A DNA stretch of 64,000 nucleotides from NCBI RefSeq assembly GCF_045037415.1, contig NZ_CP173438.1. The stretch is one strand, 5' to 3'. The translations under genes and the position numbers were made by a program. Under the pieces are notes generated by a model. It had not been told where the DNA came from. It searched no databases and saw only the letters and a list, made by a program, of their open reading frames with translations. This DNA is from Escherichia coli. Lineage in GTDB: Bacteria; Pseudomonadota; Gammaproteobacteria; Enterobacterales; Enterobacteriaceae. Of this stretch, positions 5,210 to 53,564 are shown piece by piece; the stretch's first letter is position 1; every line of letters begins with the position of its first letter.

Positions 5210-8200
5210 TTACGCCTTCTCGATGTTTACTAAGAACGCTTTATATTCCGGCGTTTGCGAGTTTGCATCACCGACATTCGGCGTCAGAGTGTTAGCGATA
5301 TAACCTTTACGCGCGACACCTTCAAAGCCCCAGTGGATTGGAATACCCACCGTTTCAACCTGCTGACCGTTTACATTCAGCGGTTTCAGACGGCGCGTTA
5401 CCACAGCCACCGCGCGGATAAAGCCACGCTTGCTGGAGACAGTGACACGATCGCCATTGGCAATGCCTTTCGCCGCCGCCAGCGTTTCGCTGATTTCCAC
5501 AAACTGTTCCGGCTGAGCAATTGCGTTGAGCAATGCGTGCTTGGTCCAGGTGTGGAAGTGCTCCGTCAGACGATAGGTCGTACCCACATACGGGAACTGC
5601 TCTTTTTTACCCATCCGCAGCGCGTCTTGTTCATACAGACGAACAACCGGGTTAGACACCACGTTCGGATGCAACGGGTTAGTGCCCAGCGGCGTTTCAA
5701 TTGGCTCGTAGTGTTCCGGGAACGGACCTTCCGCCATTTTGTTGATGGCAAACAGGCGTCCCATCCCTTCCGGTTGCATGATAAACGGCCCGGTTGGCGT
5801 ACCCGGCGCGGCATTGCCGAAGTCCGGAATATCGTTACCCGTCCACTTGCTACCGTTCCACTGGATCAGCATCCGTTTCGGATCCCACGGTTTACCGTTG
5901 ATATCCGCCGAAGCACGGTTGTAGAGTACGCGACGGTTGAGCGGCCACGCCCAGGCCCATCCCAGCGTATTCCCCAGACCGGACGGGTCGGAGTTATCGC
6001 GGTTAGCCATCTGGTTGCCCTGCTCGGTCCAGCTACCGGTGTAGATCCAGCAAGAAGATGCGGTTGTACCGTCATCACGCAGATGTGCAAAGCTACTCAG
6101 CAACTGACCTTTCTTCGCAATCAGCACGCCATTAGCGTCATAGAGATCTTCCAGCGCATAGCCGTTATTCTCTTTCGCCACTTCATCAGACTGCGGTTCG
6201 TGCGGCTGCTTGTAGTTCCAGCTCATCTTCATCAGCGGTTCTACGCCTTTACCACCTTCGGCCTGGTACAGCTCGCGCAGATGATGGTAGATACCCGCCA
6301 GAATTTCGCCGTCGTTACGTGCTTCGCCCGGCGCGTCCTGACCTTTCCAGTGCCACTGCAACCAGCGACCGGAGTTAGCGATAGAACCATCTTCTTCAGC
6401 AAAGCAGGTCGAAGGCAGACGGAATACTTCAGTCTGAATAGATGCCGGATCGACATCGTTCGACTCGCCGTGGTTCTGCCAGAAGGTAGAGGTTTCAGTC
6501 ACCAGCGGATCGATAACCACCATGTACTTCAGCTTGCTCAGGCAGCTCACCACTTTGTTTTTGTCCGGGAAGGACGCAACCGGGTTAAAGCCCTGGCAGA
6601 AATAACCGGTGACTTTACCTTCATCCATCATGTTGAAATACTTGATGACGTCGTAGGTCTGGTCCCACTTCGGCAGCCAGTCGTAGCCCCAGTTGTTCTC
6701 TTTCTGCGCGGCATCGCCGTAGAAAGATTTCATCAGGCTAACGAAAAACTTCGGATAGTTGCTCCAGTAGTTCACCTGATCAGCCAGCGTCGCTTTCGGC
6801 GTGTTCGCTTCCAGATACGACTGCAAATCAACCTGTTTTTCTGACGGCAGCGTCAGATAACCTGGCAGGCTGGTAGAGAGCAGGCCTAAGTCAGTCAGGC
6901 CCTGAATGTTGGAGTGACCACGCAATGCGTTCACGCCGCCACCGGCCATACCCATGTTACCGAGCAGCAACTGGATCATCGCCATCGTACGGATGTTCTG
7001 CGCACCCACGGTGTGCTGCGTCCAGCCCAGCGCGTACAGGAAGGTGGTTGTGCGATCCGGTGCGCTGGTGGAGGCCAGCACTTCACACACTTTCAGGAAG
7101 TCGGCTTTTGGCGTACCGCAAATGTTTTCTACTACGTCCGGCGTGTAGCGGGAAACGTGCGCTTTCAGCAGATTCCATACACAGCGCGGATGAGTCAGCG
7201 TGTCATCGCGTTTCGCATAGCCGTTTTCATCGAACTGATAGTTCCAGGACGACTTATCGTATTGACGTTTTTCAGCGTCGTAGCCGCTGAACAGACCGTC
7301 TTCGAAAGCAAAATCATCACGCACCAGCAGGCTGGCGTTGGTGTAATGCTTAACGTATTCGGCGTTGATTTTGTTGTTTTCGATCAGGTAGCGCAAAACG
7401 CCAGACAGGAACGTAATGTCCGTACCGGAACGAATAGGTGCGTAAATATCCGCCACAGAAGCGGTACGCGTAAAACGGGGATCGACAACGATCAAGGTTG
7501 CATCGTTGTTGTTTTTCGCTTCCATCGCCCAGCGGAAACCGACGGGATGCGCTTCAGCAGCGTTACCGCCCATCACCATTACGACGTTAGCGTTTTTGAT
7601 ATCCACCCAGTGGTTGGTCATCGCACCGCGACCAAATGTTGGAGCAAGACTTGCTACCGTTGGTCCGTGTCAGACGCGCGCCTGGTTGTCTACCGCCAGC
7701 ATCCCGAGGGAGCGGGCAAATTTTTGAGTCAGCATCCCGGTTTCGTTGCTGGCACCGGAAGCACACAGCATACCGGTAGAAAGCCAACGGTTTACCGTTA
7801 CGCCCTGCTCGTTCTTTTCAATAAAGTTAGCGTCACGGTCGGCTTTCATCAGCTTCGCAATACGGGAGAATGCTTCTTCCCAGCTAATGCGCTGCCATTT
7901 GTCAGAACCTGGCGCACGATATTCCGGGTAGCGCAGACGGTTTTCGCTGTTGACATAATCCAGCAAACCGGCCCCTTTCGGGCACAGCGCACCACGACTT
8001 ACCGGATGATCCGGGTCACCTTCAATGTGATAAATCGCTTCTCTGGCGTTTTTCGCGCCATCACCCAGGCTATACATCAATAGCCCGCAACCTACGGAAC
8101 AGTATGTGCAGGTGTTACGGATCTCTTTCGCGCGTAATAATTTGTAGTTTCGCGCCTGAGCCAGTGCTTGCTTCGGGGCAAAGCCCAATGCTGCTACTGT

Positions 8201-49537: not shown

Positions 49538-50461
49538 ATGGAAAAAAATAGTCTGTTTAGTCAGCGCATCCGTTTGCGCCACCTTCATACATTCGTAGCT
49601 GTCGCACAACAAGGAACTTTGGGGCGCGCGGCTGAAACCCTTAATTTGAGTCAACCTGCGCTCTCTAAGACATTGAATGAACTGGAGCAGCTGACGGGCG
49701 CTCGCTTGTTTGAGCGTGGTCGTCAGGGGGCGCAACTTACCTTACCCGGCGAACAATTTTTAACGCATGCAGTCAGAGTTCTTGACGCCATCAACACTGC
49801 CGGACAGTCGCTTCATCGTAAAGAAGGTCTTAATAATGATGTCGTCAGGGTTGGTGCGCTACCTACTGCGGCACTAGGGATATTACCTTCGGTTATAGGT
49901 CAGTTTCATCAGCAACAAAAAGAGACGACCTTGCAAGTTGCGACAATGAGTAACCCTATGATTCTGGCGGGTTTAAAAACCGGGGAAATCGATATCGGCA
50001 TTGGTCGGATGTCAGATCCTGAACTGATGAACGGGCTTAATTACGAACTACTGTTTCTTGAATCGCTGAAGCTGGTTGTCCGCCCTAATCACCCGCTACT
50101 TCAGGAGAACGTAACGCTAAGCCGGGTGCTGGAATGGCCGGTCGTTGTATCACCAGAAGGCACTGCGCCACGCCAGCATTCAGATGCATTAGTGCAGAGC
50201 CAGGGATGTAAAATTCCTTCGGGTTGTATCGAAACGCTGTCTGCTTCGCTATCTCGTCAACTTACGGTTGAATACGATTACGTGTGGTTTGTCCCTTCTG
50301 GCGCTGTAAAAGACGACCTGCGTCATGCCACGCTGGTAGCCCTGCCTGTTCCGGGACATGGTGCAGGCGAACCGATTGGAATACTGACCCGCGTAGATGC
50401 GACGTTCTCTTCTGGTTGCCAGTTGATGATTAACGCTATTCGAAAATCAATGCCGTTCTGA
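49538..50461 (+). CDS. ydcI: LysR-family transcriptional regulator (307 aa)
   Basis: ORF 49397..50461 trimmed to ATG 49538 (MEKNSLFSQRIRLRHLHTFVAVAQQGTLGRAAETLNLSQPALSKTL), LysR HTH. Confidence 0.85.
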   Translation: MEKNSLFSQRIRLRHLHTFVAVAQQGTLGRAAETLNLSQPALSKTLNELEQLTGARLFERGRQGAQLTLPGEQFLTHAVRVLDAINTAGQSLHRKEGLNNDVVRVGALPTAALGILPSVIGQFHQQQKETTLQVATMSNPMILAGLKTGEIDIGIGRMSDPELMNGLNYELLFLESLKLVVRPNHPLLQENVTLSRVLEWPVVVSPEGTAPRQHSDALVQSQGCKIPSGCIETLSASLSRQLTVEYDYVWFVPSGAVKDDLRHATLVALPVPGHGAGEPIGILTRVDATFSSGCQLMINAIRKSMPF

Positions 50462-50498: not shown

Positions 50499-51020
50499 TC
50501 ACACCGTAGCAAAACTAACTGGTTCACCCGCTCCTCGTGGTTCTGCCGACACAGAATGTTTGTTCAGACGGAATACGTCCACCGCCTCAGTTAGTCGTGC
50601 CGCCTGTTCTTCAAGGGACACCGCCGCCGTTGAGGCCTCTTCTACCAGAGAAGCATTCTGTTGCGTCACCTTATCCATTTCAGAAATCGCCTGGCTAACC
50701 TGCGTTATGCCTCGACTTTGTTCACCCGAGGCGGTGGCGATTTCCTGCATGATATGTGTGACACTCGCGACGGCATCAACAATAGTGCACATGGTTTTCC
50801 CTGCCGTTGCCACCTCATCCGATCCCAGGTCAATTAACCTGACTGATTCACTGATCAAGCCTTCAATCTCTTTCGCCGCCTGGGCGCTGCGGCTTGCGAG
50901 TGTCCGTACTTCGCTGGCGACAACGGCAAATCCACGGCCTTGCGAGAGTAACGAATGATTAAACTGGCTAAACCGAATGACGAAAAATTCTGGAAAGCAG
51001 CACGCGATTTCGTCAGGTGA
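50499..51020 (-). pseudogene. 5'-truncated methyl-accepting chemotaxis protein (trg-like) remnant: C-terminal signalling domain only
   Basis: In-frame translation ...[34 protein letters not shown]...VSFATV*; MCP homology starts near 50942; upstream in-frame segment (to stop at 51021..51023) is unrelated and has no ATG/GTG/TTG; no TM, periplasmic or HAMP region. Confidence 0.6.
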
Positions 51021-51099
51021 TTATTTTCGTCCCTAAGGAAACCACATAGGATGCTCACGGGTGCCTGAGACTTTCTGTTTTCAGGCTAACCTGGAATCA

Positions 51100-51145
51100 G
51101 AAAGACGAAGGCCCCGACCGATATTTCTATCAACCGAGGCCAACG

Positions 51146-51175
<30 letters not shown>
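51100..51175 (-). ncRNA. sokB: Expected position of the SokB antisense RNA (approximate)
   Basis: Placement by analogy with hok/sok loci where the antisense RNA overlaps the mok translation-initiation region; exact ends not determinable from sequence. Confidence 0.3.
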
Positions 51176-51354
<179 letters not shown>

Positions 51355-51425: not shown

Positions 51426-51599
51426 TCAGTTAGTGCATGTTTTTTTCGATGCACTAATAGAACCATCATTACAGACAAATTTGCCGCCTGCCGTACAGTG
51501 TGAGATCCCCCCTTTCGAACCAGAACAGGGTTTGCGCCCGGCATCGGCATAAAAGGAAACAAGCGTTCCCATAACCAGGATAAGTGCCAGTTTTTTCAT
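51426..51599 (-). CDS. ydcA: Small secreted protein YdcA (57 aa), not in ORF track
   Basis: Translation MKKLALILVMGTLVSFYADAGRKPCSGSKGGISHCTAGGKFVCNDGSISASKKTCTN*; ggagg SD; signal peptide. Confidence 0.75.
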   Translation of the reverse strand: MKKLALILVMGTLVSFYADAGRKPCSGSKGGISHCTAGGKFVCNDGSISASKKTCTN

Positions 51600-51769
51600 A
51601 TAACCTCCATGATTTATCGAATCTTATGTTCGATTTGAACGTTATACGCTGGTTTATTTTGATACCGTTGATGAGATCAAAGATCGGGTGAATTGATTAA
51701 AGATAAGCCAGATGGACGTATAGACAAGGATTATGGTTTTATTTGTCATACAAATAAATATAATAGGCG

Positions 51770-51833
51770 CTTCCGATGTAGGCCCGTATTCTTCGCCTGT
51801 ACCACGGGTCGGTTTTAGTACAGGCGTTTTCTT
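51770..51833 (+). ncRNA. rydC: RydC small regulatory RNA
   Basis: cttccgatgtaggcccgtattcttcgcctgtaccacgggtcggttttagtacaggcgttttctt matches the RydC sequence as recalled; terminal hairpin cgcctgtac/gtacaggcg plus U tract; sits between ydcA and cybB. Confidence 0.7.
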
Positions 51834-51843
51834 TAAATATCCT

Positions 51844-52374
51844 TCAGGAACGTTTACGTGGCATCATGCGTAGAAGTGTGTTGTCCTTCCAGAAATAGTG
51901 GTGTGCCAGTGCAGCCGCAGCGTGCAACCCGATGACAAAATATCCCAGATTCGCCAGCGTTTCATGCCACGACTTTAAGCTATCAACCCGCTCGAAATTG
52001 GCCTCTGAAGCGTAAGGCATCGTCAAACCAAACGCAAACCACGGGTTGCCCCGGTTATACATCATCACCAAACCAATCACCGGCAGCGCAATAAACAGGA
52101 GATAAATCACCAAATGGCCCAAATGCGCCAGTCCCGTCATCATCGGTTTTGGCTTAGGTATAATCGGCGGGGTTGGGTATTTCAGCCTTAACAAAAGACG
52201 AACCACCATCAGTACGAGAATTGAGATGCCACAGGAAACATGAATCATGTTGATGAGGGGCCGATCGCTACGTGGGAAGAAACCACGAAACTCCATTGCG
52301 CAATACGCTACGATAACCAGCAAAAAGACCAGCCAGTGAATGCTGATTTGTAACCTTGAGTATTTATTTCCCAT
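51844..52374 (-). CDS. cybB: Cytochrome b561 (176 aa)
   Basis: ORF 51844..52410 trimmed to ATG 52374 (MGNKYSRLQISIHWLVFLLV); heme-ligand histidines in TM helices. Confidence 0.88.
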   Translation of the reverse strand: MGNKYSRLQISIHWLVFLLVIVAYCAMEFRGFFPRSDRPLINMIHVSCGISILVLMVVRLLLRLKYPTPPIIPKPKPMMTGLAHLGHLVIYLLFIALPVIGLVMMYNRGNPWFAFGLTMPYASEANFERVDSLKSWHETLANLGYFVIGLHAAAALAHHYFWKDNTLLRMMPRKRS

Positions 52375-52562: not shown

Positions 52563-53564
52563 ATGAGTAAAGTTGGTATTAATGGTTTTGGTCGTATCGG
52601 TCGACTGGTGTTGCGTCGATTACTTGAAGTCAAAAGCAACATAGACGTTGTCGCTATTAATGATCTCACTTCCCCAAAAATTCTCGCCTACCTGCTGAAA
52701 CATGATTCAAACTACGGACCGTTCCCCTGGAGCGTTGATTATACGGAAGATTCACTTATCGTTGATGGGAAAAGTATCGCGGTTTACGCCGAAAAAGAGG
52801 CTAAAAATATTCCGTGGAAAGCGAAAGGCGCAGAAATCATTGTCGAATGTACAGGCTTTTATACCTCCGCCGAGAAATCGCAGGCGCATCTTGATGCTGG
52901 CGCGAAGAAGGTGTTGATTTCCGCCCCTGCCGGTGAAATGAAAACCATCGTTTATAACGTCAATGACGACACTCTGGATGGCAACGACACCATTGTTTCC
53001 GTGGCGTCATGCACCACTAACTGCCTTGCGCCGATGGCCAAAGCCTTGCATGACAGTTTCGGGATAGAAGTCGGCACGATGACGACCATTCATGCCTATA
53101 CCGGCACCCAGTCACTGGTGGATGGCCCGCGTGGTAAAGATTTACGTGCTTCACGCGCAGCGGCAGAAAATATCATTCCCCACACTACGGGGGCGGCAAA
53201 AGCCATTGGCCTGGTGATCCCGGAACTGAGCGGCAAACTGAAAGGTCATGCGCAACGCGTGCCGGTGAAAACAGGTTCGGTCACTGAACTGGTGTCGATT
53301 CTCGGAAAAAAAGTGACTGCCGAAGAGGTGAACAACGCGCTTAAAAAGGCGACAAACAATAACGAGTCATTTGGTTATACCGATGAAGAAATAGTCTCTT
53401 CCGATATCATTGGCAGCCATTTCGGTTCGGTGTTTGATGCCACGCAAACGGAAATTACCGCCGTGGGCGATTTACAACTGGTGAAAACGGTCGCCTGGTA
53501 CGATAACGAATATGGCTTCGTCACGCAGCTTATTCGCACCCTCGAAAAATTCGCTAAACTCTGA
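52563..53564 (+). CDS. gapC: Glyceraldehyde-3-phosphate dehydrogenase paralog, intact (333 aa)
   Basis: ORF 52563..53564 uninterrupted; NAD-binding [10 protein letters not shown] and catalytic [10 protein letters not shown]. Confidence 0.88.

What the first reader, a model, noticed from the sequence alone, without database searches (positions are those of the whole stretch)
51770..51833. RydC sRNA between ydcA and cybB
A 64-nt sequence matching RydC as I recall it, with its terminator hairpin and U tract, lies on the plus strand between the small secreted protein gene ydcA and cybB. It is an Hfq-dependent regulator and is not represented in the ORF track.
Basis: partly seen in the sequence, partly recalled or inferred. 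Interest (0 to 1): 0.3.

Follow-up and report, generated by a model that had tools for sequence, protein, structure and literature searches.

The report
RydC small RNA gene, confirmed
The 64-base stretch is the well-known E. coli small regulatory RNA gene rydC, in its usual place next to cybB and one base different from the laboratory strain, so the finding is correct but ordinary.

Summary
The observation and the interpretation both hold. Rfam's RydC model (RF00505) matches window 51770-51833 (+) end to end at 90.5 bits (gathering score 48, E 1.6e-16). The annotated rydC of E. coli K-12 MG1655 (b4597) maps to 51770-51834 with one difference, A13G at window 51782. Gene order is that of K-12: ydcA (51426-51599, -), rydC (+), cybB (51844-52374, -). 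The two pseudoknot helices, the free 5' seed, the U-U steps and the terminator U tail are all present. A13G turns an A-U pair into a G-U wobble. In eight distinct homologues 99.2% of cells pair, and Escherichia and Salmonella differ by compensatory changes in helix 2. The seed pairs with the cfa 5'UTR at -108 to -99. The promoter has a perfect TATAAT and no -35. A 21-bp perfect palindrome abuts the -10, and its core matches the published YieP motif 15 of 15; YieP is the known repressor of rydC. The likely mechanism is an Hfq-dependent, YieP-repressed sRNA that activates cfa. Expression and Hfq dependence rest on the literature, not on tests here. This is already known. RefSeq pipeline records, as seen for Nissle 1917, do not annotate the gene. 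Interest is low.

The parts
51770..51833 (+). rydC, the RydC sRNA. The K-12 annotation extends one more T, to 51834.
   Evidence: Rfam RF00505 at 90.5 bits, full length. 98.5% to K-12 b4597 with the same 5' end.
51770..51781 (+). Single-stranded 5' seed CUUCCGAUGUAG
   Evidence: Invariant in all 8 distinct homologues, although the search pattern fixed nt 1-10. Nt 3-12 pair with the K-12 cfa 5'UTR at -108 to -99, -15.2 kcal/mol; 4 of 1000 shuffled seeds do as well.
51781..51810 (+). Pseudoknot helix S1: nt 12-18 (51781-51787) pair with nt 35-41 (51804-51810). It contains the A13G difference at 51782.
   Evidence: This is the helix in the Rfam model. 100% of cells pair in 8 homologues; the only changes are A-U to G-U and U-A to U-G. 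Energy -9.9 kcal/mol against -10.5 for the K-12 allele.
51794..51826 (+). Pseudoknot helix S2, which is also the terminator stem: nt 25-33 (51794-51802) pair with nt 49-57 (51818-51826).
   Evidence: 9-nt perfect inverted repeat, -13.8 kcal/mol. Two pairs counted as compensatory between Escherichia and Salmonella, plus a third seen by eye at the apical pair.
51827..51833 (+). 3' tail UUUUCUU: terminator U tract and Hfq proximal-face binding site
   Evidence: Read directly from the sequence. Its role comes from the Hfq-RydC crystal structure paper PMC4337610.
51759..51764 (+). -10 hexamer TATAAT of the rydC promoter, at -11 to -6. There is no -35.
   Evidence: Invariant in Escherichia, E. albertii and Salmonella-like loci. 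No two-hexamer promoter was found by the scan, which agrees with PMC11340327.
51738..51758 (.). 21-bp perfect palindrome TTTATTTGT-cat-ACAAATAAA. Its core, 51741-51755, is the probable YieP operator and spans -29 to -15.
   Evidence: Inverted repeat with 9-nt arms, 100% complementary. The minus-strand reading ATTTGTATGACAAAT matches the published YieP motif 15 of 15 and is the only match with fewer than 3 mismatches in the window. The block is conserved into Salmonella-like loci while sequence further upstream diverges. Assigning it to YieP is an inference.

Best explanation
This is the chromosomal rydC gene of an E. coli strain. Transcription would start at 51770 from a sigma-70 promoter that has a perfect -10 and no -35. 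It would normally be held off by the GntR-family repressor YieP, probably bound to the palindrome at 51741-51755, which lies across the promoter spacer. The roughly 64-nt transcript folds into a compact pseudoknot of two helices (nt 12-18 with 35-41, and nt 25-33 with 49-57). The second helix plus the U tail is the intrinsic terminator. Hfq binds the U tail and the loop U-U steps and protects the RNA. The free 5' end (nt 1-12) pairs with the long 5'UTR of cfa mRNA at about -108 to -99. That pairing stabilises the mRNA, counteracts Rho termination and raises cyclopropane fatty acid synthase. Weaker repressive targets are reported as well. Shown here: identity, position, structural compatibility, seed-target complementarity and the operator-like site. 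Taken from the literature or inferred: expression, Hfq dependence, YieP binding at this exact site and the regulatory outcome.
For: Rfam RydC match at 90.5 bits, full length. One-base difference from the curated K-12 rydC, with the same start. K-12 synteny runs from ydcI to aldA. cybB lies convergently downstream in E. albertii, a cryptic Escherichia and Salmonella-like loci as well. The sequence is present once in 5410 of 5426 complete E. coli genomes, and the exact allele is in 1241 of them. The pseudoknot is compatible with 99.2% of cells and has compensatory changes in S2; slid controls pair in 28-43% of cells. Seed-cfa duplex of -15.2 kcal/mol at -108 to -99. That cfa site is identical in 5346 of 5426 genomes, including a strain identical to the window around rydC. 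The YieP consensus is matched 15 of 15 next to the -10. Literature: Hfq-RydC structure and the pseudoknot requirement (PMC4337610); YieP repression, promoter description and cfa activation (PMC11340327); rydC and ydcA among the YieP ChIP-exo targets (PMC7642389).
Against: Nothing contradicts it. Nested-only folding of the 64 nt is unremarkable (z = -0.98). That is expected for a pseudoknot, but it means thermodynamic prediction alone gives no support. The covariation sample is small: 8 distinct sequences from 2 genera. S1 shows no double-sided change, and the search pattern fixed part of S1's 5' arm and the last three S2 bases. No expression data exist for this strain. RydC is reported as barely detectable under standard conditions (PMC11340327).
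Confidence: 0.97

Rival explanations
1. The sequence is a decayed or inactive copy of rydC, in which the A13G change in pseudoknot helix 1 destabilises the fold so the RNA is no longer functional.
For: Point mutations in helix 1 (G37C/G39C) are reported to make RydC unstable (PMC4337610). The window differs from K-12 inside that helix.
Against: A13G gives a G-U wobble opposite U40, and the helix energy changes only from -10.5 to -9.9 kcal/mol. The same allele occurs in 1241 complete E. coli genomes, in E. albertii and in a cryptic Escherichia, so it is a common, maintained variant. The promoter, seed and terminator are intact.
Confidence: 0.02
2. The hairpin is just the transcription terminator or 3'UTR of the convergent cybB gene, or the stretch is part of a small protein-coding ORF (51693-51818 or 51733-51873, +), rather than an independent sRNA gene.
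For: The cybB stop codon is only 10 nt from the 3' end of the element. Two short + strand ORFs overlap it.
Against: The T tract follows the hairpin only on the + strand. On the cybB strand the stem is followed by AAGAATACGG. A conserved TATAAT sits 5 nt upstream of the RNA start on the + strand. Salmonella-like homologues carry two separate 1-nt insertions that would break any reading frame, and their substitutions preserve base pairs rather than codons. The overlapping ORFs start upstream of the mapped RNA 5' end.
Confidence: 0.01

Closest known systems
RydC sRNA of E. coli K-12 MG1655 (b4597; Rfam RF00505)
   Same: Same locus, strand relation to ydcA and cybB, 5' end, length, seed, both pseudoknot helices, U-U steps, terminator tail and -10 hexamer. 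63 of 64 bases are identical.
   Different: A13G at window 51782 changes A-U to G-U in helix 1. In the promoter, the window has G at 51745, which makes the palindrome perfect and gives a 15 of 15 YieP consensus; K-12 has A there (14 of 15).
RydC of Salmonella (represented here by S. enterica subsp. arizonae, L005, and the metagenomic locus L035)
   Same: Identical seed and helix 1 core, the same palindrome and TATAAT upstream, and cybB convergent downstream.
   Different: Two 1-nt insertions in the loops. Three apical helix-2 pairs are swapped by compensatory changes (UAC/GUA to CGU/ACG). The upstream neighbour differs, and ydcA was not found in those loci.

Membership tests
RydC (Rfam RF00505) | Covariance-model score at or above the curated gathering score | tested here: met
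   90.5 bits against 48, E 1.6e-16, model positions 1-64 of 64, no truncation.
RydC (Rfam RF00505) | Orthologous position: convergent with cybB and, in E. coli/Shigella, downstream of the divergent ydcA | tested here: met
   ydcA at 51426-51599 (-), rydC at 51770-51833 (+), cybB at 51844-52374 (-). The K-12 features map one to one. cybB is also downstream in the E. albertii and Salmonella-like loci. The literature description agrees (PMC11340327).
RydC (Rfam RF00505) | Pseudoknot fold: helix S1 (nt 12-18/35-41) interleaved with helix S2 (nt 25-33/49-57) | tested here: met
   All 16 pairs can form in the window sequence. 99.2% of cells pair across 8 distinct homologues, against 28-43% for slid partners. 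S2 has 2 counted compensatory pairs and S1 has wobble-only changes. The sample is small and the search pattern partly constrained it. The physical fold is known from PMC4337610.
RydC (Rfam RF00505) | Conserved single-stranded 5' seed complementary to the cfa long 5'UTR | tested here: met
   The seed is identical to K-12. It forms a 10-bp duplex with cfa at -108 to -99, -15.2 kcal/mol; 4 of 1000 shuffled seeds are as good. The target site is identical in 5346 of 5426 E. coli genomes. cfa itself lies outside the window.
RydC (Rfam RF00505) | Rho-independent terminator with a U-rich 3' tail, and loop U-U steps used for Hfq binding | tested here: met
   The stem at 51794-51802 / 51818-51826 is followed by UUUUCUU. 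U23U24 and U46U47 are present. Their role is from PMC4337610.
RydC (Rfam RF00505) | Hfq-dependent stability and regulatory activity in vivo | not testable with these tools
   Known for the K-12 and Salmonella alleles from the literature only (PMC4337610). Not measured for the G13 allele.
YieP regulon promoter | A YieP binding motif (atTTGTaTGAcaAAT) placed so as to block the promoter | tested here: met
   15 of 15 match at 51741-51755 (minus-strand reading), which is -29 to -15, and the only match with fewer than 3 mismatches in 64 kb. Binding at this exact site was not shown here. ChIP-exo lists rydC and ydcA as YieP targets (PMC7642389), and genetics show repression (PMC11340327).

The most novel reading that the evidence does not exclude
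The window's lineage combines a perfect 15 of 15 YieP operator (K-12 has a G-to-A change in a high-information position) with the G13 wobble allele of RydC. If the perfect operator binds YieP more tightly, rydC would be repressed more strongly in most natural E. coli than in K-12, so the threshold for inducing cfa would be higher. K-12, the strain in which all the regulation was measured, would then be the atypical, leakier allele.
Probability: 0.2. Interest if true: 0.2.

Novelty: already known. Interest (0 to 1): 0.08.

Why it matters
It matters little beyond correct annotation. RydC is a characterised Hfq-dependent sRNA that raises cyclopropane fatty acid synthesis and so affects membrane properties and acid resistance. 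Automated RefSeq annotation, as seen for Nissle 1917, does not mark the gene, so an ORF-only view leaves the ydcA-cybB gap looking empty. The one useful detail is natural variation. The RNA carries a structure-neutral A13G change found in about 23% of complete E. coli genomes. About three quarters of genomes carry a perfect YieP consensus site in the promoter, whereas K-12 has an imperfect one.

Tried and rejected
Nested minimum-free-energy folding of the 64 nt gave a non-native structure with an unremarkable z-score of -0.98. It was rejected as uninformative because it cannot represent a pseudoknot. The simple promoter scan found no two-hexamer promoter upstream of rydC, consistent with the reported lack of a -35. 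Its 'terminator' hit at 51795-51809 pairs the wrong segments. The pattern scan of genome contigs returned only 3 true homologues and 4 chance matches (Actinotignum, Firmicutes, Thermotogae). It did not return the E. coli or S. enterica representative genomes, although the pattern fits their RydC. The metagenome scan gave 110 loci, dominated by E. coli alleles, plus unrelated chance matches that were discarded because they lack both helices. No Klebsiella, Citrobacter or Enterobacter homologue was recovered with this strict pattern, so the covariation test stayed small. The duplex of full-length RydC with the cfa UTR (-39.2 kcal/mol) was disregarded because it unfolds the pseudoknot. The ideas that the element is a cybB terminator or a small ORF were considered and rejected (see rivals).

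Full report
**Observation**

Window 51770-51833 (+) reads CUUCCGAUGUAGGCCCGUAUUCUUCGCCUGUACCACGGGUCGGUUUUAGUACAGGCGUUUUCUU. A scan of the whole window against Rfam 15 at gathering thresholds gave three hits. One is RF00505 RydC at exactly these coordinates and on this strand. It covers model positions 1-64 of 64 at 90.5 bits, against a gathering score of 48, with E 1.6e-16.

**Identity and context**

A 301-nt query around the element matches 5415 of 5426 complete E. coli genomes and is 100% identical to several strains, including SK1144 and Nissle 1917.

- In K-12 MG1655 the curated record annotates the ncRNA rydC (b4597) at 1491442-1491506, between cybB and ydcA.
- Each K-12 feature was mapped back onto the window by BLAST. 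This gave rydC at 51770-51834 (98.5%, no gaps), ydcA at 51599-51426, cybB at 52374-51844, hokB at 51205-51354, sokB at 51157-51101, gapC at 52563-53564 and ydcI at 49538-50461.
- NCBIfam confirms the two neighbours: YdcA matches equivalog NF007462 at 146 bits and cytochrome b561 matches NF008566 at 379 bits.
- The window is therefore the K-12 aldA-ydcI region in reverse orientation, from a non-K-12 E. coli.
- The PGAP annotation of Nissle 1917 lists no feature for rydC, and none of the sampled RefSeq matches to the 64 nt carries an annotated feature.

**Difference from K-12**

The only change inside the RNA is A13G, at window 51782. The exact 64-nt allele is present in 1241 of 5410 matching genomes, and nearly all the others differ by one base. 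The same G is found in E. albertii and in a cryptic Escherichia genome.

**Structure**

The literature describes RydC as a pseudoknot of two helices with a free 5' seed. It was seen in a crystal structure with Hfq and is required for stability in vivo (PMC4337610).

- In the window sequence, nt 12-18 pair with nt 35-41 (GC, GU, CG, CG, CG, GC, UA; -9.9 kcal/mol, against -10.5 for the K-12 allele).
- Nt 25-33 pair with nt 49-57 in nine Watson-Crick pairs at -13.8 kcal/mol. This second helix is a perfect 9-nt inverted repeat.
- A13G therefore replaces an A-U pair with a G-U wobble.
- Ordinary nested folding cannot represent this fold and gave an unremarkable result, z = -0.98.

For a comparative test I scanned the genome and metagenome collections with a seed-plus-terminator pattern. 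After chance matches were discarded, eight distinct RydC sequences remained, from Escherichia, E. albertii and Salmonella-like loci.

- On their alignment the pseudoknot pairs in 99.2% of cells, against 28-43% when the partners are slid by 1 to 3 columns.
- Helix 2 has two counted pairs with changes on both sides (U-A to C-G and A-U to G-C). A third, the apical pair (C-G to U-A), is visible by eye.
- Helix 1 varies only through wobble-compatible changes.
- The sample is small, and the search pattern fixed nt 1-10, nt 14-17 and the last three bases of helix 2. This counts as support, not an independent proof.

The U-U steps (U23U24 and U46U47) and the UUUUCUU tail, which the crystal structure paper links to Hfq contacts, are all present.

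**Target pairing**

The seed (nt 1-12) is identical to K-12. Against the 212-nt K-12 cfa 5'UTR, its best duplex is RydC nt 3-12 with CUACGUCGGA at -108 to -99, at -15.2 kcal/mol. Only 4 of 1000 shuffled seeds do as well. A 51-nt segment around that site is identical in 5346 of 5426 complete E. coli genomes. These include SK1144, which is identical to the window around rydC. RydC activation of cfa, through mRNA stabilisation and relief of Rho termination, is reported in PMC11340327.

**Promoter and regulation**

- TATAAT lies at 51759-51764, which is -11 to -6.
- No -35 is detectable. This matches the published description of a perfect -10 with no obvious -35 (PMC11340327).
- Directly upstream is a 21-bp perfect palindrome, TTTATTTGT-cat-ACAAATAAA, at 51738-51758.
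- Read on the minus strand, its core (51741-51755) is ATTTGTATGACAAAT. This matches all 15 positions of the YieP motif atTTGTaTGAcaAAT derived from ChIP-exo (PMC7642389).
- It is the only match with fewer than three mismatches in the 64-kb window.
- The palindrome and the -10 are conserved into Salmonella-like loci, while sequence further upstream is unrelated.
- K-12 has A instead of G at 51745, giving a 14 of 15 match. The exact 35-mer with the perfect site is in 3991 of 5426 complete genomes.
- YieP represses rydC about 20-fold in E. coli (PMC11340327). rydC and ydcA were already among the YieP ChIP-exo targets chosen for study (PMC7642389).

Assigning YieP to this exact palindrome is my inference. 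It fits the published data, and the regulation itself is not new.

**Rivals**

- An inactive copy is unlikely. The only change is a wobble-compatible one that is common in nature.
- A cybB terminator is unlikely. The T tract follows the stem only on the + strand, and a conserved -10 drives the + strand.
- A small ORF is unlikely. The Salmonella-like homologues carry two separate 1-nt insertions, and their substitutions preserve base pairs rather than codons.

**Verdict**

It is the known rydC gene, in its known place, carrying a common natural allele. Novelty: already known. Interest: low. The only reading with any novelty is that the perfect YieP operator in this and most other E. coli lineages represses rydC more tightly than the K-12 allele does. 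That would need binding and reporter assays to test.

Noticed in passing
window 51738-51758: A 21-bp perfect palindrome abuts the rydC -10 hexamer. Its core (51741-51755) matches the published YieP ChIP-exo motif 15 of 15. K-12 has a G-to-A change at 51745. The perfect version is in 3991 of 5426 complete E. coli genomes.
   Followed up: yes
window 51059-51210 (+) and 51101-51157 (-): The Rfam 'sok' (RF01794) hit at 108 bits lies on the same strand as mokB/hokB and runs up to the hokB start codon. The K-12-annotated SokB antisense RNA maps to the opposite strand, at 51157..51101, with 100% identity. The Rfam hit therefore marks the locus but not the strand of the antitoxin RNA.
   Followed up: partly
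window 50499-50943 (-), junction at 50943/50944: Only nt 1197-1641 of the chemoreceptor gene trg remain. 1333 bp, comprising the promoter and the 5' 1196 nt, are missing relative to K-12. Nissle 1917 has the same truncation plus a further 297-bp loss (window 50953-51249) that removes sokB and the 5' part of hokB, both of which are intact here.
   Followed up: partly
window 52563-53564 (+): gapC is an intact 333-aa type I glyceraldehyde-3-phosphate dehydrogenase here (TIGR01534, 448 bits). It is a frameshifted pseudogene in K-12, with a 1-nt gap in the alignment.
   Followed up: partly
window 7617-7675 (-): Full-length Rfam SECIS_3 hit at 84.3 bits against a gathering score of 63, implying a selenoprotein gene at that position. 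The host gene was not examined.
   Followed up: no
Genome-contig collection: The pattern scan of the species-representative genomes did not return the E. coli or S. enterica representatives, although their RydC sequences fit the pattern. It returned only E. albertii, a cryptic Escherichia and S. arizonae, plus chance matches. Absence from that collection scan should not be read as absence of the gene.
   Followed up: no
L015:5492-5555, L051:4498-4561 (-), L035:231-296 (-): Rare metagenomic RydC variants. A35G turns the closing U18-A35 pair of helix 1 into U-G (L015). A53U breaks one helix-2 pair (L051, a singleton, possibly an assembly error). A Salmonella-like variant has C in place of the first of the two U's that follow G17 (L035).
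   Followed up: partly
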